Shown: positions 1 through 62,689 of the stretch, piece by piece | Layout: each line of letters starts with the position of its first letter | Numbering within the stretch: the first letter of the stretch is position 1 | NCBI GenBank assembly: GCA_963789955.1 | Contig: CAWBMV010000006.1 | Coordinates: 192,001 to 256,000 of the forward strand | Origin: an uncultured Candidatus Rokubacteria bacterium | GTDB taxonomy: Bacteria > Methylomirabilota > Methylomirabilia > Rokubacteriales > CSP1-6 | Direction: 5' to 3' | Length of the DNA: 64,000 nt | Notes under the pieces: generated by a model | What the model saw: the letters and a program-made list of their open reading frames with translations, nothing else | What the model was told of the DNA's origin: nothing | Databases searched by the model: none | Position numbers and translations under genes: made by a program

Positions 1-1183
1 CGCAGTTCTCGGTCTGGCCGTAGACCTCGCGCATGTCGATGCCGAGCGCCATGTACCACTTGATGAGATCGGGCGCGATCGGCGCGGCGCCGGTCGCGGT
101 GCCGCGGGCGCGGTGCAGGCCCATCGAGCGCTTGACGTTGTCGAGCACGAAGAAGTCGGCGATCCGGAACAGCAGGCGAAGACCGACGCCGGGCCGGCGG
201 CCGGCGACGCGGTGCTCGGCCACGCGTGCGCCGACGGAGAGCGCCCAGTGGTAGGCGAGCCGTCCCGGACGCGTGGCATCCCGCATCCGGAGGGCGACGG
301 CCGAGTAGAGCTTCTCCCAGATCCGCGGCACCGCGAAGAAGAGTGCCGGAGCGACTTCGCGGAGGTTGTCCGGCACGGTGTCGATGCTCTCGGCGAAGTT
401 GACGGTGGCCCCGGTTCGGAGCGGATTGAACACGCTGACCGTGCGCTCGGCGATGTGGCAGAGCGGGAGGAACGAGAGCTGCTGGTCGCCTTCGTGGAGC
501 TCGGTGACGTAGTCGGAGTAGTCGATCTGGAACAAGATGTTGCGGTGACTCAGCATCGCTCCCTTCGGCGGTCCCGTCGTGCCCGACGTGTAGACCAGGA
601 TCGCCAGATCGTCGGGCCGAGCGAGCTCGACCAGGCGCTCGAAGGCGCCGGGATTCTCCGCCTCGTGGCGGAGGCCCAGCTCGAGCAGCTCGTCGAACGA
701 CATCACTTGCTCGTCCTTGAAGGCGTGAAGCCCCTCGAGGTCGAAGACGATGATCTTCACGAGCTGGGGGCAGTTGCCGCGGACCTCGAGGATCTTGTCG
801 AGCTGCTCCTCGTCGGCGGCGAAGAAGAAGCGGGTGCCGCTGTCGTTCACGATGTATTCGACCTGCCGCGCCGAGTCCGTCGTGTAGATCCCGTTGGTGA
901 CGCCGCCGACCGAGAGCGTCCCGAGATCGGTGTAGAGCCACTCGGGGCAGTTGTCGGCCATGATCGAGACGACGTCGCGGTGGCGCAGACCGAGCGCGAC
1001 CAGCCCGAGCCCGACGTGCCGCGCCCGCTCGCCGTACTCGTGCCAGCTGACGGCTCGCCAGACGCCCAGCTCCTTCTCGCGCATGGCCACCCGGGCCCCG
1101 CGCTCGCGCACGACGTGGCGAAAGAGCTTCGGCAAGGTGTCCTGGCCGAAGACGGTGGTCGAAGTGCCGGTCGTCACCGCCAT
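1..1183 (-). CDS. Long-chain acyl-CoA synthetase / AMP-binding enzyme (runs off the window edge)
   Basis: Manual translation from ATG at 1183: MAVTTGTSTTVFGQDTLPKLF...; AMP-binding motif ILVYTSGTTGPPKGAMLSH; overlaps the stop of the upstream ABC ATPase. Confidence 0.9.
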   Translation of the reverse strand, partial: MAVTTGTSTTVFGQDTLPKLFRHVVRERGARVAMREKELGVWRAVSWHEYGERARHVGLGLVALGLRHRDVVSIMADNCPEWLYTDLGTLSVGGVTNGIYTTDSARQVEYIVNDSGTRFFFAADEEQLDKILEVRGNCPQLVKIIVFDLEGLHAFKDEQVMSFDELLELGLRHEAENPGAFERLVELARPDDLAILVYTSGTTGPPKGAMLSHRNILFQIDYSDYVTELHEGDQQLSFLPLCHIAERTVSVFNPLRTGATVNFAESIDTVPDNLREVAPALFFAVPRIWEKLYSAVALRMRDATRPGRLAYHWALSVGARVAEHRVAGRRPGVGLRLLFRIADFFVLDNVKRSMGLHRARGTATGAAPIAPDLIKWYMALGIDMREVYGQTENC

Positions 1184-1947
1184 GTCTTCTTCCTCTTCCA
1201 GCGCCGCGTGCCGCGGACGCCCGACTCCTTCATCCCGAGGTAGAACTCCTTGATGTCCTCTTTCTCGAGAAGCCGCGCGCACGTGTCCTCCATCACGATG
1301 CGGCCGACCTCGAGCACGTAGCCGTAGTCGGCGATGTGGAGCGCCATGTTGGCGTTCTGCTCCACCAGGAGGACGGTCACACCGCGCTCCCGGTTGATGC
1401 GCGCGATGATCTCGAAGATCTCCTTGACGAGCCGGGGCGAGAGGCCGAGCGACGGCTCGTCGAGCAGCATCATCCGCGGCCGCGCCATCAGGGCCCGGCT
1501 GATCGCGAGCATCTGCTGCTCGCCCCCGGAGAGCGAGCCCGCGCGCTGCTCGGCCCGAGACCGGAGCACCGGGAAGTACGAGTAGACCAGCTCCAGATCC
1601 TCGGCGACACCGCCCGCATCCCGCCGCGTGAACGCGCCCATCATGAGGTTCTCTCGAACCGAGAGAAACGGGAACACTTCGCGTCCCTCGGGCACGTGGC
1701 TGATGCCGAGCCGCGTCACCTTGTCGGGATCCATGCCCTGGATCTCGCGGCCCGCGAACGTCACGGTGCCCTTCTGGGGATCCATCACGCCGGACACCGT
1801 CTTGAGGATCGTGCTCTTGCCGGCGCCGTTGGCGCCGAGGATCGTGACGACGGAGCGCTCCGGCACCGCGAAGCTGACGCCGCGGATGGCCATGATCGGA
1901 CCGTAGTAGGTTTCGAGGTTCGCGACGGCGAGCAGCGCGTCGGCCAT
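1174..1947 (-). CDS. livF: Branched-chain-type ABC transporter ATP-binding protein (LivF-like)
   Basis: Walker A GANGAGKST, signature LSGGEQQ, LLDEPSLGLSP, LLVEQN. Confidence 0.9.
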   Translation of the reverse strand: MADALLAVANLETYYGPIMAIRGVSFAVPERSVVTILGANGAGKSTILKTVSGVMDPQKGTVTFAGREIQGMDPDKVTRLGISHVPEGREVFPFLSVRENLMMGAFTRRDAGGVAEDLELVYSYFPVLRSRAEQRAGSLSGGEQQMLAISRALMARPRMMLLDEPSLGLSPRLVKEIFEIIARINRERGVTVLLVEQNANMALHIADYGYVLEVGRIVMEDTCARLLEKEDIKEFYLGMKESGVRGTRRWKRKKTWR

Positions 1948-1950
1948 TCG

Positions 1951-2709
1951 TCAGGCGCCCAGGTACGCCTTGATGACTTCGGGATGCTCCTGCACCTCAC
2001 GCGCGGTGCCGAGCGCGATCGGCCGCCCGTAGTTCACCGCGAGGACCCGATCCGACACCGAGCTGACGAGACTCATGTCGTGCTCGACCATCAGCACGGT
2101 GACACCGAGGATCGTCCGGATGTCCTGGATCCAGAACGCCATGTCCTCGGTCTCCTCGACGCTCAGCCCGGACGACGGCTCGTCCAGCAGCAGGAGCCGC
2201 GGGCGCGTGCAGAGCGCCCGCGCCACCTCGACGACCTTGCGGACGCCGTAGGCCAGGTTGACGACGAGGCTATCGCGATGCGGCTGCAGATCCAGGAAGT
2301 CGATGACCTTCTCGACCGCTTCCCGGTGCTCGAGCTCGAGCGCGCGCACCCGCGGCAGGAACAGGAGCTCTTCCACGAACCGCGAGCGCTTGTGGGCGTG
2401 GCGGCCGAGCAGGAGGTTCTGGAGCACGGTGGCGTGCTCGAACAGCTCGATGTTCTGGAACGTCCGCGCGATGCCGCGCCGCGCGACCTCGTGCGGCGCC
2501 ACCCGCGTGATGTCCTCACCGTCGAAGATCAGGCGGCCCGCGCTCGGCTCGTAGATGCGCGAGACCAGGTTGAAGATCGTCGTCTTGCCGGCGCCGTTGG
2601 GGCCGATGATCGTGAAGACCTCGCCCGGCTCGATCTGGAAGCTCACGCCGTCGACGGCCCGGAGGCCGCCGAAGTCCATGACGAGGCCGTCCGCGGCGAA
2701 GAGACTCAC
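1951..2709 (-). CDS. livG: Branched-chain-type ABC transporter ATP-binding protein (LivG-like)
   Basis: GTG start overlapping the livM stop; GPNGAGKTT, RTFQNIELF, LLDEPSSG, VEHDM, C-terminal VIKAYLG. Confidence 0.88.
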   Translation of the reverse strand: MSLFAADGLVMDFGGLRAVDGVSFQIEPGEVFTIIGPNGAGKTTIFNLVSRIYEPSAGRLIFDGEDITRVAPHEVARRGIARTFQNIELFEHATVLQNLLLGRHAHKRSRFVEELLFLPRVRALELEHREAVEKVIDFLDLQPHRDSLVVNLAYGVRKVVEVARALCTRPRLLLLDEPSSGLSVEETEDMAFWIQDIRTILGVTVLMVEHDMSLVSSVSDRVLAVNYGRPIALGTAREVQEHPEVIKAYLGA

Positions 2710-3849
2710 CGCAGGCGCTCCGACCGCATGTACGACTTCTGGCGCCTGAACGTGGCGCGCTTGTAGAGCGGGAAGGTCGAGAAGTAGAGCTGGATCTTCC
2801 GCCAGCGGCCATAGATGCCCAGCGGCTCGAACAGGATGAACAGCACGAGAATCAACCCGAAGAGCCCGGGCTCGAGGCCGGGCTTCTTGACGAACTGATC
2901 CACCGCCAGGAACGCCGCGCTGCCGGCTTCCTTTCCGAACGGAGCGGCGAGCGCGCCCGGCCCAGGCCGGGATCGAGTCGCGGGCCTGGGAGATCGCCAC
3001 CGGCAGCAGCGCCACGAAGACGGCGCCGAAGAGCGCGCCGTGCAGGGAGCCGAGGCCGCCGACGACCACCATCAGCAGAAACTGGATCGAGAGCAGCACG
3101 GTGAAGATGTCCGGAGCCAGAAACCCGATCTTGTGCGCGAAGAGCGCGCCGGCGACGCCCATCAGCGCGGCGGAGTAGGCGAAGGCGCTGGTCTTGTAGA
3201 CGGCAAGGTTCACGCCCATCGACTGCGCCGCGATCTCGCTGTCGCGGATCGCCACCCAGGCTCGGCCCGTCGGCGCGCGCAGGAGGTTGCCCGTCAGCCA
3301 CAGACCCCCGATCAGGAAGGCCAGGCACAGGAAGTAGAACGCGGCGTCGCCGCCCATGTTGACGCCGAAGACGACGGGCTTGTCCACCGCCTTGCCCTTG
3401 AGCCCGCCGGTGACTCGCTCCCAGCGCGTCAGCGCTTCCTGGATGATCAGCGCGAACGCCAGGGTCGCGATCGAAAGATAGACGCCGGTCATGCGCAGCG
3501 CGGGCAGGCCGACCAGGACGCCGACCCCCGCCGTCACGACGCAGGCGAGGGCGACCCCGACGACCCACGGCAGGCCGAGATCGTGAACGACGTAGACGTG
3601 CGTATAGGCGCCGATCCCGAGGAACGCGGCGTGGCCCAGGCTGACGAGGCCGGTGTAGCCCGCGAGCACCATGAGCGAGAGCCCGCAGAGCCCGTAGATG
3701 AAGACGAGGCTCACGTCGACGAGATAGGAGGGGATCAGCAGCGGCAGGACCAGCAAGCCCAGCAACAGGGCCAGATACCAGTTGCGCTGGACCCCGTCGC
3801 GAAAGATTCCCAGGTCCTGAGCGTAGGTGGTCTTGAAGATGAAGCGCAC
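2706..3849 (-). CDS. livM: Branched-chain-type ABC transporter permease (LivM-like); one frameshift near 2950
   Basis: GYTGLVSLGHAAFLGIGAY, TGRAWVAIRDSE, VVVGGLGS; C-terminus continues in ORF 2706..2903 (FEPLGIYG). Confidence 0.85.
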
Positions 3850-3852
3850 GCC

Positions 3853-4725
3853 TCAGACCTTCTTCCGCGTGATCGTGCCGAACATGCCCTGAGGCCGCAC
3901 CGCGAGCACGATGAGCAGCACGACGTACGCCGCGACGTCCTTGAATCCCTGGGGCAGGTAGGCCCCCGAGAAGAGCTCGATCAGCCCGATCGTGACGCCG
4001 CCGACGAGCGCGCCGGGGATCGAGCCGAAGCCGCCGAGCACCGCGGCCGCGAACGCCTTGAGCCCGATGAATCCGAGGTTGATGTCGATCAAGGACACCG
4101 GGGCCAGCAGGACGCCGGCGATCGCCGCGACCGCCGCCGAGATCGCCCAGATCAGCGAGAACATCAGCTTCACGGGGATGCCCATGTAGTAGGCCGCGAG
4201 CTGGTTCTGCGACGCGGCCTGCATCGCCAGGCCGACGCGCGTGAACGTGAAGAACGCGTAGAGGATCGCGCACAGCAGTAAGGTGCCGACGATGATCGAC
4301 AGGTACTCGTGGCTCACCGCGACCCCGGCCAGGCGCGTGGCGTGGGCGCTGAACGGCGTCGGGAGCGTGTAGATCTCCGAGCCCCAGGCGATCGACGCGA
4401 AGCTCCGGAAGATCGCGCCGAGCCCGATCGTGAGCATGACGACCGAGAACTGCGGCTGGCCGATGACTCTTCTGAGGATCGTCGCGTCCAGGACCGCGCC
4501 GAAGATTCCGACCAGCACCACCGCCAGCGCAAGCGCCAGCCAGTAGCCGACCCCGTACCAGACGACGAACATGTAGCAGGTGAAGGCGCCCAGCATCAGG
4601 AGATCGCCCTGCGCGAAGTTCACGAGCTCGGTCGCCTTGTAGATGAGCACGAAGCCGAGCGCCACCAGCCCATAGATGCAGCCCACCGCGAGGCCGTTCA
4701 GCACGAGCTGCAGGATGATGTCCAG
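3853..4725 (-). CDS. livH: Branched-chain-type ABC transporter permease (LivH-like); probable CTG start
   Basis: LNGLAVGCIYGLVALGFVLIY...NFAQG, VLGGFGSIPGA; SD GGAGGAGG at 4731-4738 precedes an in-frame CTG at 4725. Confidence 0.87.
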   Translation of the reverse strand: MDIILQLVLNGLAVGCIYGLVALGFVLIYKATELVNFAQGDLLMLGAFTCYMFVVWYGVGYWLALALAVVLVGIFGAVLDATILRRVIGQPQFSVVMLTIGLGAIFRSFASIAWGSEIYTLPTPFSAHATRLAGVAVSHEYLSIIVGTLLLCAILYAFFTFTRVGLAMQAASQNQLAAYYMGIPVKLMFSLIWAISAAVAAIAGVLLAPVSLIDINLGFIGLKAFAAAVLGGFGSIPGALVGGVTIGLIELFSGAYLPQGFKDVAAYVVLLIVLAVRPQGMFGTITRKKV

Positions 4726-4760
4726 GCCGCCCTCCTCCGGGTTGGCTCCGAAATGCTCCG

Positions 4761-4789
4761 TTTATAGCCAGCAAGCCGCCATCCGTCAA
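4761..4789 (-). promoter_or_regulatory. Sigma70-type promoter for the liv-like operon
   Basis: Minus strand TTGACG-17 nt-TATAAA; the -35 lies within the imperfect palindrome CCGTCAAATTGGACGG (4783-4798). Confidence 0.6.
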
Positions 4790-4836
4790 ATTGGACGGGT
4801 ATTTCGCCTGGGCCACCGCGAAACCCTGGGCTGGGA

Positions 4837-4884
4837 TTGCCACGCGCAGGGCACTCGTTTACACTTCGATGAACAGTCGTTCAT
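4837..4884 (+). promoter_or_regulatory. Sigma70-type promoter plus palindromic operator for the ferritin-like operon
   Basis: TTGCCA(4837)-17 nt-TACACT(4860); palindrome ATGAAC-agtc-GTTCAT (4869-4884) covers the predicted +1. Confidence 0.65.
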
Positions 4885-4902
4885 TTTCCGGGAGGCCCTC
4901 GC

Positions 4903-5658
4903 ATGGATCGACCGATCGCCTACGACAAGCTCGCGCGAGAAGACCGATTCATCAGGATGCGCGCGCGGGACGTCGCGGAGCTGAAGGTCGCCCAGGGGCT
5001 CCCGCCGTTTCCCGATCTCTCGAGCGCCGAGTCGATCAAGGAGCGGGTCCACGGGATCATGGTCGGCGAGATGCAGGCGATGGAGGGTGCCGGCCGGAGC
5101 GTGTGCGACTTCCCCGAGGCGCCGTGGGACTTCACGATGGACATGGCGCGCCAGGTCTGGGACGAGTCGCGCCACGTCGAGATCTACCTGAGACTGCTCG
5201 AGCACCTCGACGGCTACGCCGGAGAGTATCCCGAGACGACGATCCTCTGGCGCTGCGCGTGCGCCGAGGACGCCGCGGCGCGGGTGGCCGGCGTCAACCG
5301 CGGCCTCGAGGGCCTGGCGTGCGACGTCTTCAACCAGCTCGTGCACATCGCCCGGAAGATCGGCGACCCGATCCTCGAGCGCGCGGTCGATTTCGTGCTG
5401 GCCGACGAGATCACGCACGTCCGCATGGGCTCGAAGTGGCTGACCAAGCTCACCGAGGGCGACGCCGAACGGCGGCGCCGCGCGATCGAGTTCCAGGAGA
5501 GCATCGACGAGCGCTTCAATCTGGGCGGTGTCCGCCGCGAAGGTGATCACGACGCGGTGTCCATCTCGATCGCCACCGACGTGCGGCGGATGGCCGGGTT
5601 CACGGAAGAAGAGATCGATCGGCTGATCAAGACCACCCAGCGGTCTCAGGTTTACTGA
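4903..5658 (+). CDS. Ferritin-like diiron-carboxylate protein (DUF455-like)
   Basis: E...ExxH...E...ExxH ligand pattern: VGEMQA, WDESRH, GLEGLA, ADEITH; SD GGGAGG upstream. Confidence 0.75.
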   Translation: MDRPIAYDKLAREDRFIRMRARDVAELKVAQGLPPFPDLSSAESIKERVHGIMVGEMQAMEGAGRSVCDFPEAPWDFTMDMARQVWDESRHVEIYLRLLEHLDGYAGEYPETTILWRCACAEDAAARVAGVNRGLEGLACDVFNQLVHIARKIGDPILERAVDFVLADEITHVRMGSKWLTKLTEGDAERRRRAIEFQESIDERFNLGGVRREGDHDAVSISIATDVRRMAGFTEEEIDRLIKTTQRSQVY

Positions 5659-5663
5659 GCGGC

Positions 5664-6646
5664 GTGTCGCAGCCCCTGGAAGGAACCTTCAGCGCCGAGC
5701 ACTCCGCCCGGCTGCTCCGTAACTACCGCTACGTCGTCGAGCGCACCATGCGAGCGCTGGGCGGCTGGATCGCGCTCACGCCCGAGCTCTCGGCCAAGCT
5801 CCTGATGGGCCGACACGTCTGGGACCTCGCCCAGCACTGTGACGCCTTCGGCCAGCGTCTCCCGGAGCTCCGCGCCCGCGCCCAGGTCTCCGAAGCCGCG
5901 AACCCGGCGGTCGCCGCGCTCATGGACTCTGTCGAGGACGCCGAAGGGCCCGATCAAACCGTCGAGCGTCTGGTCGGCGTGTACGGCGTACTGAAGCCTC
6001 ATCTCCTCGCGACCTACCGCGATCATCTCGCGCACGCCAATCCGGTCTACGAGCCACCGACCCGCCGCATCCTGGCGCGCTGCATCGACGACGAGGAGCG
6101 CCACATCGCCGCCGGTCAGACGATCCTGCGCTACCTCGCGGCCGGTCCGCGTGCGGCCGAGCGCGTGAGCGCGCGGCGCCGGCACCTCGAGGGGCTGCTG
6201 GCGGCCGCCGGCGGGGTGACGGGGGCGGGAGTGCCGGCGCCGGGCCAGCGCGGTCATCGCAGCGCAGGCGGAGATGTCGGACGACGCGCAGGAGTTCATC
6301 CGGCTGGAGAAGGCGACGGGCACATGGCCGATCCCCGCGGATCTCGAGGAGGCGCAGCGCTCGTTCGCGTCGGCGCTCGTGGCCGGTGACGACGCGACCT
6401 TGACTCGCTGGCTCGTGCCCGGTCTCGAGATCCAGACCACCGCGCGCGCACTGCTGGACGGCGCGACGTACTCCAGCCACGCGACCGTCGCGTTCGCGCG
6501 GCTCGGGCCATCAGCGGCTCGTGAAAATGCGGCTCGACGGCCCGTCGAGCTCGGCGACCGTGCTCGCCCGCTGGACGCCGTCGCCGCAAGGCTGGCGCAT
6601 CGCCGCTCTCGACGTCGGCGGGCGAGACGCCGTCCGCCCGGCCTGA
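5664..6646 (+). CDS. Ferritin-like protein with degenerate metal ligands plus a small C-terminal alpha/beta domain; frameshifts near 6240 and 6510
   Basis: WDLAQH and DDEERH; frames rejoin to end ...[18 protein letters not shown] at TGA 6644-6646. Confidence 0.6.
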
Positions 6647-6653
6647 GCGGCCG

Positions 6654-8003
6654 TTGTTCGGCACCGTCCTCGTCGCCAATCGCGGAGAAATCGCCCGCCG
6701 CGTGTTCCGCGGCTGCCGTCAGCTCGGGCTCAAGACCGTTGCGGTGTACTCGGAAGCGGACCGCGGAGCGCTGCACGTCGCGCGACGCCGACGCGGCGGT
6801 CGAGATCGGCGGCGCGCCGGCCCGCGAGAGCTATCTCAATGCCGAGCGTATCCTCGACGCGGCCCGCCAGACGCGCGCCGACGCCATCCATCCCGGCTAT
6901 GGTTTTCTCTCCGAGAGCTGCGCGCTTCGCCGAGGCCGTTCAGCACGCCGGCATCGTCTTCGTCGGCCCCAGCCCGCGACGCCATCCGGAAGATGGGCGA
7001 CAAGATCGAGGCGCGCCGCCTGATGAGCTCCGCCGGCGTCTCGGTGCTGCCCGGCAGCTCCGGCGCGGTCGCCGACGTCGCCGGAGCCGAGGCGGCGGCG
7101 CGCGAGGTGGGCTATCCGATCATCCTGAAAGCCGCCGCCGGCGGCGGCGGCATCGGCATGGCCCGCGTCGACAAGCCCGGCGATCTCGCCGCCGCGTTCG
7201 CCGCGGCGAACCGGCGCGCCCAGGCCGCGTTCGGCACGGGCGAGCTCTACGTCGAGCGCTACCTCGAGCGGCCCCGACACGTGGAGGTTCAGGTGTTCGG
7301 CGACGAGGCGGGAACGGTCGTGCACATGCACGAGCGCGAGTGCTCGATCCAGCGGCGTCACCAGAAGCTCGTCGAAGAGTCGCCGGCGCCCGGGCTGCCG
7401 GCCGCCACGAAGTCCGGCCTCACCGCCGCGGCGGTCGCCGGCGCCCGCGCCATCGGCTACACGAACGCCGGGACGATGGAGTTCCTCGTCGACGAGCGCG
7501 GGGGATTCTATTTCCTCGAGATGAACGCGCGGCTCCAGGTCGAGCACCCCGTCACGGAAGAGGTGACGGGCCTCGATCTCGTCGTCGCGCAGCTTCGCGC
7601 CGCGGCGGGCGAGCCGCTGCCGTGGCGGCAGAGCGAGATCGTTCAGCGCCGGGCGGCTATCGAGTGCCGAGTGTATGCTGAGGATCCGTCGAAGGGCTTC
7701 CTGCCGTCGCCGGGAACGATTCAGAAGCTCGAGCTGCCGTCGGGAGAGGGAATCCGGATCGAGTCCGGGATCGAGGCGGGGAGCACCGTGTCGGTCCACT
7801 ACGATCCGCTGCTCTTCAAGCTGATCGCCCACGGAGCGACGCGCGCGGACGCGATCGAGCATCTGGCCGCTGCGCTCGATCGCTGCGTGATCGAGGGTGT
7901 CCAGACCACGATTCCGTTTCTGCGCCGGGTCGTCGCGAGCGCCGAGTTCCGGCAGGGTCGCGTGCACACGCAGATGCTCGAACAAGGAGCCTTCAATGCC
8001 TGA
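6654..8003 (+). CDS. accC: Biotin carboxylase (AccC-like); several frameshifts near the 5' end
   Basis: [55 protein letters not shown]. Confidence 0.9.
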
Positions 8004-8211
8004 GGAGATCAAGGCGCACATCACGGGGGTCGTGTTCCAGATCGCCACCAAGCCCGGTGACCGGGTGGCGGCGGGCGACGCGGTGATCGTGCTCGAGTCG
8101 ATGAAGATGGAGATCCCCGTCGAAGCGCCCAGGGCCGGCGCGGTGAAGGAGATCAAGGTCCAGGAAGGTCAGACCGTGCAGGAAGGCGACGTGGTCGCGG
8201 TACTGGAGTAG
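7996..8211 (+). CDS. Stand-alone biotin carboxyl carrier protein
   Basis: ATG at 7996 after AAGGAG; ESMKME biotinylation motif; 71 aa. Confidence 0.9.
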   Translation: MPEEIKAHITGVVFQIATKPGDRVAAGDAVIVLESMKMEIPVEAPRAGAVKEIKVQEGQTVQEGDVVAVLE

Positions 8212-8222
8212 GGAAGAGGCCG

Positions 8223-8733
8223 ATGAGCCTCGACCTCATCCGGGGACTGTACGACTACCACCGCTGGGCCAACCGGCGGCTCTTCGACGTCGCGCTCGCG
8301 CTCGGCGAGGACGCTGGCGGCCCGCGACGTCGGCAAGCAGTTCAGCTACACGACGATCCGGGAGATGTTCGGTCACCTCTACGGTGCGGACCGCATCTGG
8401 CTCTCACGCTGGACGGGGCGCTCGCTGACCGCGGACCCACGCGGGCAGTTCGCGACGCTCTCGTCGATCCGGGCGCCGTGGGACGACCTCGAGCGGGATC
8501 AGCGCGCCTACATCGAGGGATTGTCAGCGACGGATCTCGCGGGCGTGATCCAGTACACCAACGCCGAGGGCAAGCAGCTCAGGGCTCCGCTCGGGCCGCT
8601 GCTTCAGCACGTGGCCAATCACGCCACGCACCACCGGAGCGAGATCGCGACCATGCTGACGATGGTCAGCAGCTCGCCCCCGGACACCGGTCTCGCCACC
8701 TACCTTCTGGTCACGACGAATCAACTGCGGTAA
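8223..8733 (+). CDS. DinB family protein; frameshift near 8313
   Basis: YHRWANRRL, FGHLYGADRIW, HVANHATHHRSE His triad. Confidence 0.85.
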
Positions 8734-8734
8734 G

Positions 8735-8832
8735 CGCGTGACCTCGCGGGCGGCACGACTTCGAGGGGCGCCGGCTACGCCGGGGCGTCTCCGAGCGCGG
8801 GGGGCTTGGGGGGCCCTTCGAGGCCCCCCATC
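8735..8832. repeat. GC-rich multi-hairpin intergenic element between convergent genes
   Basis: TGGGGGGCC-cttcga-GGCCCCCCA (8807-8830) and CCGGC-tac-GCCGG stems. Confidence 0.5.
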
Positions 8833-8836
8833 TCGC

Positions 8837-10338
8837 CTAATTCTCGATAAAGGCCCGGAGGTTGCGGCCGCGCAGCGGATGACGCAGCTTCCTGAGCGCC
8901 TTCGCCTCGATCTGGCGAATGCGCTCACGCGTCACCTCGAAGCGCTTGCCGACCTCTTCGAGGGTATGCTCGCCCTCTTCGCCGATACCGAATCGCAGTC
9001 GCAGGATTTCCTTCTCTTTCGGCGACAGCATCGACAGCGCTCGCTCGACCTGCGTGGTGAGGTCCTGGTTCAGCAGCGACTCGTTGGGCGAGCCCGCTGA
9101 CTTGTCCTCGAGGAAGTCTCCGAGCTCGGAGTCCTCACCAATGGGCGTCTCGAGCGACAGCGGCTTCCTCGACGACTCGAGGATGAGCCGAACCTTCTTG
9201 GCCGGCACGCCCGTGCGCTGCGCCAGCTCTTCCGGAGTCGGCTCACGACCGATCTCGTTGACCAGATTCCGGTTCACGCGTGAAATCCGGTTCAGGGTCT
9301 CGACCATGTGGACCGGGAATGCGGATCGTGCGCGAGTGGTCGGCGATCGCCCGGGTGATCGCCTGGCGAATCCACCAGGTGGCGTACGTCGAGAACTTGA
9401 AGCCTCGCCGGTACTGGAACCGGTCGACGGCCTTCATGAGCCCGATGTTGCCCTCCTGGACCAGATCCAGCAGGGAGAGATCGCTCCCGAGGTAGCGCTT
9501 CGCCACCGACACGACCAGGCGCAGGTTCGCCTCCATCAGCTCGCGCTTCGCCTGGCGCACCGTGCGGTCGCTCCTGTCGATCTGCTCGAGCAGAGGGCCG
9601 AGATGCTTGCGGGGAAGTCCTGCCCGCTTTTCGAGCAAACGCAGCTCTCGCGCGGCCGCCGGGTTGTGCGACCGCCGGTTGCTGCGATCCAGCTCGCTGA
9701 TCTGCTCCCAGCGACGCCGCACCTGCGCGACCAGCTCGTCGATCAGCGCCGGCTTGAGCGTCATTCCGGCGACCACGTCCTGGATCGCCTCGCGCGCCAC
9801 GGCAATGGCCGTGGCGGTGCTCTTGCGATAGGTTGCCGACCGCCGCCTGGCCTTGAGTGACTCTTCCAGGCGCGCGATCTTCCGCTCCAGCCGCCGAATG
9901 CGCTCGAAGGCCAGGACGATCGGCCGGATCGCCTTCGCTTCGAGCTCGCCCCCCTCCGGCAGGACGATCACGTCGTCGGCAGGCATCTCGCCACGACGCA
10001 ACTTATCCCCAACCTCGAGGAGGGCCTCGACGGCCATCGGGAATCGCGACGAGCGTGCGGCGCAGAGCGATCTGACCCACCTCGATGCGGCGGCCGATCT
10101 GCACCTCCTGCGCAGCGGTGAGCAGGGGAACCTTGCCGATCTCCTTCAGGTAGAGACGGACCGGATCCTCGCCCCTGCTGAGACCGGGAGCGTAAGTTTC
10201 CTCGACGGTCGCACGCGGAGTCTCCTCCGCCTCTTCATCGACCACCGTGTTTGCTTCGCGCTCTCCGGCCGAGGCCATGCTGACGGAAGCCACGGAGCTA
10301 CCCTCGACGGCATCCGAAGTCTCGCGAAATGTCATCAT
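8837..10338 (-). CDS. RpoD-like sigma-70 factor lacking region 1.1; frameshifts near 9315 and 10040
   Basis: Region 1.2 [12 protein letters not shown]; region 2 [42 protein letters not shown]; region 4 TLEEVG...[20 protein letters not shown]. Confidence 0.88.
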
Positions 10339-60808: not shown

Positions 60809-60871
60809 GAGCGCACGGTCGGGGCACGGCCCATCACCCATAACTTTCCGCTCTTGAGGAGATCTCCCTCG

Positions 60872-62689
60872 ATGAGACGCGCGCTTAAGAAGCTTGTGTT
60901 CGTAGAACCGAAATCGACGCATCTGCACATCTATAGCCGGGTCTGTATTCCGCGCATCGGCTCGGTCCTGCTCGGCACCATCATGCGGGCCAAGGGCTAC
61001 GACGTCCGGGTCTACATCGAGGACATCCAGCCCCCCGACATGCAGGAAGTGCTCTCGGCCGACCTCGTCGCGATCTCGGCCATTACCTCGACGGCGCCGC
61101 AGTCCTACCGGCTGGCGGACCAGGTCCGCGCGGCGGGCGGAATTGCCGTCCTCGGCGGGACCCACGTGAGCTTCCTGCCGGAGGAAGGGCTCGAGCACGC
61201 GGACTTCGTCGTCCGCGGTGAGGGCGAGTTCGCGTTCCAGGAGCTCGTCGACGCCATCCAGGCCGGTCACGGGTTCGAGCAGATCAAGAACCTCTCGCAC
61301 ATCGTGGACGGGAAGGTGGTCAACCACCCGGAGCGCCCGAAGATCCCGAATCTCGACGTGAACCCGATTCCGGACTACAAGCTGATCACGGGCTGGAAGC
61401 CCGGCGGGGTCATCTCGGTCGCGACGTCGCGCGGCTGCCCGTTTTCGTGCACCTTCTGCTCGGTGCCGGGCATGTACGGCCACGCGTTCCGCACCCACTC
61501 GGTCGACCGCGTGCTGCAGGAGCTCGAGAGCCACCGGGGCAACGCCTATACGTTCTTCGCGGATGACATCTTCACGGCGAACAAGAAGCGCGTGAAGGAG
61601 CTCCTGCGCGGGATGATCGAGCGCAACCTCATTCCCGATTGGGGCGCCCAGGTCCGGACAGAAACCGTCGACGATCCCGAGCTCCTCGAGCTCATGCAGG
61701 CGGCGAACTGCTTCAACGTCTACGTCGGCTTCGAGTCCATCAATCCCCGGACGCTCAAGCTCTTCCAGAAGAAGCAGGACCTCGCGAAGATCGAGCGCTC
61801 GATCGAGCGCTTCCACGCCCACAAGATCCGGATCCACGGCATGTTCGTGGTCGGGTCCGATGAGGACGACGTCGAGACGATCGACGCCACCGCCGAGTTC
61901 GCGCTCAAGAACGACATCGACTCGATCCAGTTCATGATCCTGACGCCGATTCCGGGCTCGCCCGACTGGGAGCAGCTCTACGACCGCGGCGACAAGTACG
62001 TGATCAGCAAGAACTGGCAGTTTTACGACGGCCACCACGTCGTGCACCAGCCGCGGCGCATGAGCCCGTACGAGCTGCAGACGGGCGCGCTCGACGCCAT
62101 GGCGAAGTTCTACTCCTGGCGCGGTATCGCGAAGAAGCTCCTGAAGGGCGACCACTACTACGCGGCGATCCGGTACTTCGGCAAGCGAATGGTCCGCGAC
62201 TGGTGGAAGGACGACGAGAACCGCCAGCACGTCGAGTGGCTCAAGGCTCAGCTCTACTCGGATGCGAAGGAGCTCGGGCACCATGCGCTTCAGCGGGTGG
62301 GGCTTCCGGCCATCCTGCTGCAAGATTCCGTGGGACGCCTGCTCCAGCGCTTCCTGGGCGAGCTCGGCGTGACCGTCGTGCCGCTCGCGGAAGCCGCGGC
62401 CGAAGGCGCGGCGCGCGCCAAGGAAACCGTCGACTGCCTGATCACGCCGATCGTGAAGCGCGCGGTGAAGGAGCGCGAGGAGTTCTACGCGAATCTCGCC
62501 ACCGTGAACACCTTGCTGCAGAGCCAGTGGGAGAAGCTGCCACGCGTGAGCTTCCCGCTGCTCGACGGCCAGGGACCGGTGTTCGAGCCGTTCGCCAAGA
62601 TCGGTCTGCTCTTCACCAAGAACCTCGACCGCATCCGCGACGCCTACAAAACCGCCGGGGTCGCTGAAGGTCTCTGGGAAGCTGCGTAG
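60872..62689 (+). CDS. B12-binding domain radical SAM protein with extra C-terminal domain
   Basis: N-terminal cobalamin-binding-like region (GGTHVS, VVRGEGE), SRGCPFSCTFC, FADDIF, VGFES; SD GAGGAG. Confidence 0.88.
   Translation: MRRALKKLVFVEPKSTHLHIYSRVCIPRIGSVLLGTIMRAKGYDVRVYIEDIQPPDMQEVLSADLVAISAITSTAPQSYRLADQVRAAGGIAVLGGTHVSFLPEEGLEHADFVVRGEGEFAFQELVDAIQAGHGFEQIKNLSHIVDGKVVNHPERPKIPNLDVNPIPDYKLITGWKPGGVISVATSRGCPFSCTFCSVPGMYGHAFRTHSVDRVLQELESHRGNAYTFFADDIFTANKKRVKELLRGMIERNLIPDWGAQVRTETVDDPELLELMQAANCFNVYVGFESINPRTLKLFQKKQDLAKIERSIERFHAHKIRIHGMFVVGSDEDDVETIDATAEFALKNDIDSIQFMILTPIPGSPDWEQLYDRGDKYVISKNWQFYDGHHVVHQPRRMSPYELQTGALDAMAKFYSWRGIAKKLLKGDHYYAAIRYFGKRMVRDWWKDDENRQHVEWLKAQLYSDAKELGHHALQRVGLPAILLQDSVGRLLQRFLGELGVTVVPLAEAAAEGAARAKETVDCLITPIVKRAVKEREEFYANLATVNTLLQSQWEKLPRVSFPLLDGQGPVFEPFAKIGLLFTKNLDRIRDAYKTAGVAEGLWEAA

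What the first reader, a model, noticed from the sequence alone, without database searches (positions are those of the whole stretch)
4903..8733. Candidate new two-subunit diiron enzyme operon with biotin carboxylase, divergent from an acyl-CoA ligase and transporter
Seen: the first ferritin-like protein has a complete E/ExxH/E/ExxH set (GE, DESRH, LE, DEITH). The next has a similar helix pattern but appears to have lost ligands (DLAQH for ExxH, K at the probable third site) and carries an extra C-terminal domain. Biotin carboxylase, BCCP and DinB follow with gaps of 11 nt or less. Known: catalytic plus degenerate ferritin-fold pairs make up PaaA/PaaC and multicomponent monooxygenase hydroxylases, and PaaAC acts on a CoA ester. 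Inference: this is an uncharacterised diiron oxygenase or desaturase working on a substrate imported and CoA-activated by the divergent Liv/ligase operon.
Basis: partly seen in the sequence, partly recalled or inferred. Interest (0 to 1): 0.7.

Follow-up and report, generated by a model that had tools for sequence, protein, structure and literature searches.

The report
FadR-controlled two-subunit DUF455 iron enzyme
Two adjacent genes of an uncultured soil bacterium (Rokubacteria) most likely encode the active and the structural subunit of an unstudied iron enzyme, and their promoter carries the operator of a repressor of fatty-acid breakdown genes, a testable clue to what the DUF455 protein family does.

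Summary
The operon is real. A (4903-5658) is a DUF455 protein with a full diiron ligand set. B (5664-6646, broken by probable sequencing errors) is a distant paralogue lacking two ligands in all 73 intact copies, with an NTF2-like tail. They are adjacent in 80 of 80 Rokubacteriales loci, fused in 20 of 143 distant proteins (29 by a looser test), and predicted to bind (0.92, best control 0.00).

A palindrome before A matches the Bacillus FadR operator unit. It lies in 80 of 87 promoters outside family f2 and 0 of 10 in f2, which lacks FadR; it also precedes fadR, an acyl-CoA dehydrogenase pair and a thiolase.

Biotin carboxylase and carrier follow only in Rokubacteriales (0 of 60 loci of a second clade). 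The divergent Liv/ligase cassette has its own promoter and seems to have replaced an older same-strand paralogue.

Best reading (0.5): a heterodimeric O2-using oxygenase on acyl-CoA, accessory to beta-oxidation; substrate, chemistry and reductase are not shown. It is built like PaaA/PaaC but is not a member; a BioE-type biotin role is rejected. The scan noted this operon before in other genomes.

The parts
4837..4865 (+). sigma-70-type promoter of the operon (-35 TTGCCA, 17 nt, -10 TACACT)
   Evidence: only site found in 4600-9000, 0.3 expected from shuffles; similar hexamers recur in relatives
4868..4885 (.). palindromic operator (TGAAY-N4-RTTCA) at the likely transcription start; assigned to the FadR-type TetR repressor
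   Evidence: 80 of 87 upstream regions outside family f2, 0 of 10 in f2, 98 of 5000 random windows; second-best site in the genome; resembles the 16-bp inverted repeat of B. halodurans FadR (PMC5397183). Binding is inferred
4903..5658 (+). A: DUF455 ferritin-like protein, presumed catalytic diiron subunit (E56, E88, H91, E136, E169, H172)
   Evidence: Pfam PF04305 93.4 bits; each ligand kept in 119-120 of 120 close homologues and 55-57 of 57 second-clade proteins; model pLDDT 88.5, best fold match ADO Z 16.6, rmsd 2.8 over 188
5664..6646 (+). B: degenerate paralogue of A (residues 1-190; keeps E26, H58, E144, H147; lost the E88 and E136 equivalents, L55 and K111) plus a C-terminal NTF2-like domain; frame breaks near 6240 and 6505
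   Evidence: B profile matches A at E 1.2e-6 within one genome; full ligand set in 0 of 73 copies, K111 in 72 of 73; model of the L001 orthologue: ferritin fold Z 18.0 to ADO, tail matches NTF2-like proteins only weakly (best E 8e-3); the tail is a separate gene of about 100-120 aa in most f2 loci
6654..8003 (+). biotin carboxylase (three frame breaks in this assembly)
   Evidence: directly after B in 58 of 68 loci
7996..8211 (+). 71-aa biotin carboxyl carrier protein
   Evidence: passes NF004547 (87 bits, cut-off 75); in 65 of 68 loci
8223..8733 (+). DinB-family protein (one frame break near 8316)
   Evidence: Pfam DinB 33.2 bits, cut-off 23; in 52 of 61 loci
4761..4789 (-). probable separate promoter of the divergent Liv/ligase cassette (TTGACG, 17 nt, TATAAA)
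   Evidence: read by eye from the sequence; not reported by the scanner, which requires T at the last position
1..4725 (-). divergent cassette livH, livM, livG, livF, long-chain-type acyl-CoA ligase (runs off the window; livK follows outside it). A neighbour, not core
   Evidence: this cassette type is upstream in 11 of 96 loci (8 divergent), a 44-53% identical paralogue in most of 21 others

Best explanation
A and B form a heterodimer. A holds a carboxylate-bridged diiron site that activates O2. B is a structural subunit without a complete site that packs on A through the first two bundle helices. The operon is shut by a FadR-type repressor and opened when acyl-CoA accumulates, together with beta-oxidation genes. 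The most likely job is to oxygenate (hydroxylate or oxidatively cleave) an acyl-CoA, or a fatty acid derived from it, that plain beta-oxidation handles badly. The co-transcribed biotin carboxylase and carrier, with a PccB-like carboxyltransferase (in the operon in some genomes, elsewhere in this one), would deal with a short acyl-CoA product such as propionyl-CoA. Electrons would come from a ferredoxin or reductase encoded elsewhere. Shown by computation: gene pairing, ligand pattern, fold, operator conservation and co-distribution with FadR. Predicted: the A-B interface. Inferred: iron loading, O2 chemistry, the effector, the substrate, the reaction and the role of the carboxylase.
For: Pairing: 80 of 80 loci, 39 of 54 second-clade loci with room, B-A fusions in 20 of 143 representatives by profile, 29 by motif, with ligands kept in the A half and variable in the B half. 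Complex: score 0.92, best of 3 controls 0.00; the mark was reached by 116 of 157 solved complexes and 2 of 215 mismatched pairs; runs agree in at least 97% of contacts, partner pLDDT at least 92. Regulation: operator in 80 of 87 against 0 of 10 promoters; FadR in 75 of 83 f1 and 0 of 14 f2 genomes; the repressor passes NF053878 (205.5, cut-off 200); the other three of the four best sites in this genome precede fadR, a PimC/D-like acyl-CoA dehydrogenase pair and a thiolase; fadR and the dehydrogenase pair recur in all 5 further genomes and A-B in 4 of 5. Neighbours: two paralogous Liv/ligase cassettes upstream, a ligase-dehydrogenase cassette inside the operon in 13 loci, a carboxyltransferase in 25 of 61. 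Fold: ADO ranks first for both subunits; BioE, also modelled as ADO-like, cleaves acyl-CoA (PMC12704756).
Against: No reductase or ferredoxin lies in the operon. Fold scores fall off smoothly (Z 16.6 for ADO, 15.2 for a Dps-like protein, 13.7 for PaaA), so the fold does not pick a substrate. The predicted interface is pseudo-two-fold between paralogues and may pass by likeness to solved PaaA/PaaC, R2 or ADO dimers; the A alignment also held fusion proteins. Family f2 keeps A-B (13 of 14) without FadR or operator, and 7 of 87 other promoters lack it. The operator could be there for the carboxylase genes. In the second clade 15 of 54 loci have A with no B beside it, none of 60 has accC or BCCP, and no shared operator was found. 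The count of strong genome sites alone (6 above score 20) is not above column-shuffled matrices (0-6). All Rokubacteriales loci are kin with conserved synteny (iscS, cysE, dinP, rpoD also stay put), so they are not independent.
Confidence: 0.5

Rival explanations
1. A-B is a protective diiron protein (peroxide or lipid-hydroperoxide reduction, or iron handling) that is switched on with beta-oxidation because flavin acyl-CoA dehydrogenases leak peroxide; it does not modify acyl-CoA.
For: No reductase in the operon; Dps-like proteins, bacterioferritins and Mn catalase are among the fold matches; bacterioferritins top the sequence-profile search with the fusion alignment; near-universal single-copy presence in the order.
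Against: The fold matches span extra helices beyond the four-helix bundle (about 190 residues aligned to ADO, R2lox and PaaA against about 140 for ferritins); a dedicated degenerate subunit is typical of oxygenases (PMC4498308 for PaaC); very high sequence conservation (77-97%) suits a specific pocket.
Confidence: 0.18
2. A-B is a heterodimeric oxygenase on a substrate unrelated to acyl-CoA. It shares a promoter with an ordinary propionyl-CoA-type carboxylase, and FadR control serves the carboxylase.
For: A-B stands without carboxylase genes in 60 of 60 second-clade loci; f2 has no operator; accC is missing or broken in 10 of 68 loci and the carboxyltransferase is absent in 36 of 61; TauD-like and other unrelated genes also enter the upstream slot.
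Against: A-B are the first genes after the operator, which persists in loci that lost accC (L014, L016); second-clade neighbours include acyl-CoA dehydrogenases, CoA transferases, enoyl-CoA hydratases and ligases, though no single one is constant.
Confidence: 0.2
3. A-B is an aryl- or alicyclic-CoA epoxidase or hydroxylase in the manner of PaaA/PaaC or BoxB.
For: Same subunit logic (PMC4498308); PaaA, PaaC and BoxB appear among the fold matches; a cassette resembling cyclohexanecarboxylate-CoA ligase and dehydrogenases (all below their cut-offs) sits inside the operon in 13 loci.
Against: A scores 12.9 bits on PaaA_PaaC, cut-off 28.5; the genome has three separate proteins over that cut-off; no PaaB, PaaD or PaaE-like gene was seen in the operon; the repressor is FadR-type.
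Confidence: 0.08
4. A-B is a BioE-like enzyme that makes pimeloyl-CoA for biotin synthesis, to supply the neighbouring biotin enzyme.
For: ADO-like fold as for BioE, acyl-CoA link, biotin carrier next door (PMC12704756).
Against: Biotin synthase passes its cut-off in only 5 of 83 f1 and 0 of 14 f2 genomes at least 90% complete, and not in this genome (87% complete), while A is in 74 of 83 and 13 of 14. Ligand spacing differs (A 32-3-45-33-3; EmBioE 27-3-69-30-3), and BioE is a homodimer or monomer.
Confidence: 0.02

Closest known systems
PaaA/PaaC core of phenylacetyl-CoA 1,2-epoxidase (PDB 3PVR), and the alpha/beta subunits of bacterial multicomponent monooxygenases
   Same: Catalytic diiron subunit plus a same-fold structural subunit of low identity (PMC4498308 passages); ferritin-like fold; CoA-ester context.
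   Different: Different Pfam family (DUF455; PaaA_PaaC below cut-off); smaller subunits; no PaaB/D/E partner seen in the operon; FadR-type control; NTF2-like tail; carboxylase genes downstream.
BioE (Elizabethkingia, Chlamydia)
   Same: ADO-like ferritin diiron oxygenase with E/ExxH/E/ExxH ligands that acts on long-chain acyl-CoA and has no dedicated reductase identified (PMC12704756, PMC12915131 passages).
   Different: Homodimer or monomer in a biotin operon under BioL; different ligand spacing; most Rokubacteriales lack biotin synthase. BioE sequence was not compared here.
Cyanobacterial aldehyde-deformylating oxygenase (ADO) and R2-like ligand-binding oxidase
   Same: Best structural matches (ADO Z 16.6 for A and 18.0 for B; R2lox Z 13.8 and 15.6); both hold a fatty chain at the dimetal site (recalled; PDB titles show palmitate-bound ADO).
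   Different: About 15-19% identity; no degenerate partner subunit; different gene context.
BoxB benzoyl-CoA epoxidase
   Same: A single chain that needs no separate structural subunit; recalled to consist of a degenerate and a catalytic half, like the B-A fusions found here.
   Different: Only Z 12.2 to A; aromatic substrate; has the reductase BoxA. The fusions were not folded or compared with BoxB.
Bacillus FadR (TetR family) regulon
   Same: Repressor passes NF053878; operator resembles one 16-bp inverted repeat of the Bacillus site; targets include fadR, acyl-CoA dehydrogenases, hydratase and thiolase.
   Different: Single repeat instead of two overlapping ones; small regulon (2-4 exact matches per genome); includes a DUF455 pair. 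The effector was not tested.

Membership tests
DUF455 (PF04305) | Score above the Pfam gathering cut-off | tested here: met
   A: 93.4 bits against 34.3. B does not score, but its profile matches A.
Ferritin-like diiron-carboxylate proteins | Four-helix bundle with E, ExxH, E, ExxH ligands | tested here: met
   A. B has the fold but the full ligand set in 0 of 73, 0 of 39, 0 of 30 and 0 of 35 sequences.
Ferritin-like diiron-carboxylate proteins | Two irons bound and O2 activated | not testable with these tools
   Needs metal analysis and spectroscopy; Mn/Fe is not excluded.
PaaA/PaaC phenylacetyl-CoA epoxidase | PaaA_PaaC (PF05138) above cut-off | tested here: not met
   A 12.9 bits, cut-off 28.5; no hit for B; true members lie elsewhere in the genome.
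PaaA/PaaC phenylacetyl-CoA epoxidase | Catalytic plus structural same-fold heterodimer | tested here: met
   By prediction only: 0.92 against best control 0.00, mark reached by 116 of 157 solved and 2 of 215 mismatched pairs; fusions. May pass by likeness to solved pairs.
PaaA/PaaC phenylacetyl-CoA epoxidase | PaaB, PaaD and reductase PaaE in the operon | tested here: not met
   The genes after A-B are accC, BCCP and dinB, with no room for others.
BioE | Located with, and feeding, a biotin synthesis pathway | tested here: not met
   bioB over cut-off in 5 of 83 f1 and 0 of 14 f2 genomes, not in G000.
BioE | Sequence homology to EmBioE/CpBioE | not tested
   No BioE sequence was available from a tool; only ligand spacing from the papers was compared.
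Ribonucleotide reductase R2 | Invariant radical tyrosine four residues after the first ligand histidine | tested here: not met
   Y95 is in 120 of 120 close homologues but only 38 of 57 second-clade proteins (15 F, 4 Q). The R2 spacing is recalled.
FadR (Bacillus type) regulon | Repressor above the NCBIfam cut-off and operator before its own gene and beta-oxidation genes | tested here: met
FadR (Bacillus type) regulon | DNA binding released by long-chain acyl-CoA | not testable with these tools
   Shown for Bacillus FadR (PMC5397183 passages); inferred here.
Three-subunit acyl-CoA carboxylase (BC, BCCP, PccB-type CT) | All three subunits in the locus | tested here: inconclusive
   CT absent from this locus, present in 25 of 61 relatives; paralogues at 43-48% identity elsewhere in G000.

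The most novel reading that the evidence does not exclude
A-B and its fused forms are a widespread, uncharacterised class of two-subunit diiron oxygenases that arose by duplication inside DUF455, independently of PaaA/PaaC. They open an O2-dependent side entry into fatty-acid catabolism, by mid-chain or branch-point hydroxylation or C-C cleavage of acyl-CoA to dicarboxylyl- and propionyl-CoA that the co-regulated PimC/D-like dehydrogenase and carboxylase then use. The invariant lysine in place of a ligand in B (72 of 73) with four ligands kept may hold a single metal or tune electron entry instead of being merely dead.
Probability: 0.25. Interest if true: 0.8.

Novelty: new variant of a known kind. 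Interest (0 to 1): 0.55.

Why it matters
No characterised DUF455 protein turned up in the searches run (no solved relative by sequence). Here the family gains a partner subunit, a likely regulator and a substrate class, which narrows the assay to a panel of acyl-CoAs. The pair is a near-core trait of Rokubacteriales (87 of 97 genomes at least 90% complete), uncultured soil bacteria whose carbon sources are poorly known, and related pairs or fusions occur in proteins labelled Deltaproteobacteria, Chloroflexota and Bacteroidota. If it oxygenates or cleaves acyl-CoA it would add a catabolic counterpart to BioE among ferritin-like oxygenases.

Tried and rejected
Sequence search of solved structures with A: no credible relative. 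Foldseek gave no match at E 0.001 for either model; BoxB is absent from B's top 50, which does not exclude likeness. Plasmids: no B, one weak DUF455 among transposases. Viral contigs: one weak match. The profile comparison is void as an A-versus-B test, because alignment A6 held fusion proteins whose B halves matched; two searches were used instead. The search for longer forms of A gave 18 proteins, mostly read-through artefacts plus A-A tandem forms; B-A fusions came. My first ORF filters picked antisense frames and were replaced by a codon model. The count of operator sites was not above shuffled matrices, so only their positions and (5-14 matches per genome against 0-3 for the reversed pattern) are used. 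No extra operator site was found within the fetched DNA of the 38 loci with upstream Liv genes. No shared palindrome was found before second-clade A genes; TetR was confirmed just upstream in 3 loci, and cluster representatives for 6 others had no hit at E 1e-12. The tree is the quick tree (8 of 81 branches strongly supported), so the order of cassette events is a reading, not a test. A BioE role, R2 radical role and Paa membership were rejected as above. Literature: no paper on a DUF455 function or this operon in searches; search 110 on MadB/MadC was empty. The library lacks most subscription journals, and no supplements were read; the BioE supplements hold alignments that could bear on the BioE comparison.
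Full report
What is there. The window belongs to a Rokubacteriales genome: the closest relatives of A (95-97% identical) are mostly labelled Rokubacteria or Methylomirabilota. The stretch 4903-8733 holds five same-strand genes spaced by 5, 7, -8 and 11 nt: A (DUF455, 93.4 bits), B (no family), biotin carboxylase, a 71-aa biotin carrier and a DinB protein. Single-base indels break B, accC, dinB, livM and the neighbouring rpoD. Most relatives have intact genes, so I read the breaks as assembly errors and used orthologues by reference.

The two subunits. A has E56, E88xxH91, E136 and E169xxH172; each is kept in 119-120 of 120 close homologues and 55-57 of 57 proteins of a second clade about 53% identical. 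B is a paralogue: its profile matches A (E 1.2e-6 in one genome) and the pairwise alignment puts L55 on E88 and K111 on E136. No B sequence has the full set: 0 of 73 Rokubacteriales copies (intact ones only; 7 of 80 were dropped as cut or broken), 0 of 39 second-clade, 0 of 30 fusion halves and 0 of 35 other distant homologues. In Rokubacteriales B keeps E26, E144 and H147 in 73 of 73, H58 in 66 and K111 in 72; the more distant groups lose different ligands, as expected of a structural subunit. Both models are ferritin-like, with ADO first (A: Z 16.6, rmsd 2.8, 188 aligned; B: Z 18.0, rmsd 3.0, 191 aligned), but scores fall off gradually. B's tail has weak NTF2-like matches and is a separate small gene in most loci of family f2.

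Do they belong together? B follows A in 80 of 80 loci and in 39 of 54 second-clade loci with room; 15 have A alone. Among 143 newly listed representatives found with the B profile, 20 are B-A fusions by a strict two-profile test and 29 by motif; ligands are invariant or nearly so in the A half only. Named cluster members of fusions and distant B proteins are labelled Bacteroidota, Chloroflexota, Thermomicrobiales, Dehalococcoidia and Deltaproteobacteria. The complex prediction supports binding: 0.92 against a best control of 0.00, a mark reached by 116 of 157 solved complexes and 2 of 215 mismatched pairs; runs share at least 97% of contacts and partner pLDDT is at least 92. The interface (A 57-93 with B 29-60) uses residues conserved in both families (A E61, A82, W86; B K45, R50, W53). 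It is pseudo-two-fold and may pass by likeness to solved PaaA/PaaC or R2-type dimers; homodimers were not tested.

Regulation. Earlier notes of the scan pointed to a FadR operator, and I tested this. A palindrome TGAAY-N4-RTTCA sits just after a sigma-70-type promoter (4837-4865), 17 nt before the start of A. It is found, with up to two mismatches, in 80 of 87 upstream regions outside f2 (these include the window and a few duplicate genomes), 0 of 10 in f2 and 98 of 5000 random windows. The four best sites in this genome precede a TetR gene, A-B, a PimC/D-like acyl-CoA dehydrogenase pair and a thiolase; the number of strong sites alone is not above shuffled matrices. The TetR protein passes the Bacillus FadR model and occurs in 75 of 83 f1 and 0 of 14 f2 genomes, matching the operator's distribution. 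In five more genomes sites precede fadR (followed by a hydratase) and the dehydrogenase pair in all five, A-B in four and a MoxR/VWA pair in four. The motif resembles one 16-bp inverted repeat of the B. halodurans FadR site, whose repressor is released by fatty acyl-CoA (PMC5397183, passages). Binding and effector are inferred.

Neighbours. Biotin carboxylase follows B in 58 of 68 loci, BCCP lies downstream in 65 of 68, DinB in 52 of 61 and a PccB-like carboxyltransferase in 25 of 61; this genome has carboxyltransferase paralogues elsewhere. None of 60 second-clade loci has accC or BCCP, though only 18 are 8 kb or longer. Upstream, of 96 loci 55 have no Liv genes, 21 a same-strand cassette of another type, 11 the window's type (8 divergent), 4 livK alone and 5 are too short. 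The other-type ligases are 67-93% identical to each other across both families and 44-53% to the window's type, which suggests an ancestral same-strand cassette that was often lost and sometimes replaced; the tree is weak, so this order is a reading. The divergent cassette has its own probable promoter and no operator. In 13 loci a ligase resembling cyclohexanecarboxylate-CoA ligase, with dehydrogenases in the loci inspected, lies inside the operon. Acyl-CoA genes thus gather here repeatedly, but no single one is constant, this genome has about 32 ligase-like loci, and housekeeping synteny is also conserved.

How it most likely works. When acyl-CoA rises, FadR leaves the operator; A and B assemble; A's diiron site, reduced by a donor encoded elsewhere, activates O2 and oxygenates or cleaves an acyl chain that resists beta-oxidation; the dehydrogenase pair, hydratase, thiolase and carboxylase take the products on. 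I put this at 0.5. Rivals: a non-acyl-CoA oxygenase riding on a carboxylase promoter (0.2), a peroxide- or iron-handling protein (0.18), a Paa/Box-like aryl- or alicyclic-CoA enzyme (0.08) and a BioE-like biotin enzyme (0.02). The last fails because biotin synthase is in 5 of 83 and 0 of 14 genomes while A is in 74 of 83 and 13 of 14.

Comparison with known systems. It is built like PaaA/PaaC (PMC4498308, passages) but fails the Pfam test and lacks PaaB/D/E, and true PaaA_PaaC-family proteins lie elsewhere in the genome. BioE is the nearest chemical precedent: an ADO-like diiron enzyme that cleaves acyl-CoA (PMC12704756, passages and section 8; PMC12915131, passages). For DUF455 I found only passing mentions (PMC4520260 and PMC9988556, passages; other hits seen as listings only), and PMC8780371 (passages) does not treat this operon. 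The claim that it is not in print rests on searches of an open-access library; no supplements were read.

Verdict. A real, order-wide operon headed by an uncharacterised two-subunit diiron protein under probable FadR control: a new variant of a known kind. The scan recorded it before in at least eight other genomes. Interest 0.55: the architecture has precedent, but the partner, regulator and substrate class make a family of unknown function directly testable.

Noticed in passing
L207:162-2490, L210, L194, L205 (G130, G131, G181, G182): A MoxR AAA ATPase plus VWA gene pair (best matches MadB and MadC, below cut-off) has the same operator just upstream in 4 of 5 genomes; such pairs are recalled as chaperones of metalloenzymes and could mature A-B or the dehydrogenases.
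   Followed up: partly
L201:1593-2549 (G130): A 319-aa protein with no NCBIfam hit at E 1e-12 and a divergent metallo-beta-lactamase-fold gene share a double operator site; from recall its start resembles another ferritin-like family.
   Followed up: no
L184 (G000 C6 384400-393800): fadR heads a lipid cluster: SDR, SCP2-like protein, class III PHA synthase PhaC, PhaE/PhaR-like, acetoacetyl-CoA reductase-like and a fatty acid-CoA ligase.
   Followed up: partly
L082:1387-2046 (G000 C37 about 175900-176500): A second, 219-aa ferritin-like protein with a full ligand-like motif set, weakly matched by DUF455 (31.2 bits, below cut-off) and by the B profile; common in the phylum as a weak second hit.
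   Followed up: no
P0474, P0488, P0491: Proteins with two A-type domains in tandem, both with ligand motifs; some may be read-through artefacts of adjacent genes.
   Followed up: no
L083-L092 and L027, L062, L074, L077, L094 upstream of A: Where the operator is missing, a -10-like hexamer lies 6-9 nt before the start codon with no ribosome-binding site, which suggests leaderless mRNA.
   Followed up: no
L014, L083, L089, L092 upstream; G000 C6 182000-189000: The locus follows an ISC cluster (iscS, iscU, iscA, hscB, hscA, ferredoxin, iscX), three small divergent DsrE/TusB-like genes (label by recall), a second iscS, cysE and dinP; the ferredoxin is a candidate electron donor.
   Followed up: no
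G169, G203: Two small, 97-98% complete f1 genomes lack A yet have biotin synthase and FadR, the reverse of most of the family.
   Followed up: partly
window 8837-10338 and throughout: rpoD and many housekeeping genes carry frame breaks, so the assembly is error-rich and apparent pseudogenes or fusions in this window should be distrusted.
   Followed up: yes
window 10664-64000: The rest is mostly housekeeping: malic enzyme, glycosyltransferases, arg genes, dxr, ispG, nusA, infB, truB, pnp, pur genes, thiI, glyA and a B12-binding radical SAM protein at 60854-62689.
   Followed up: partly
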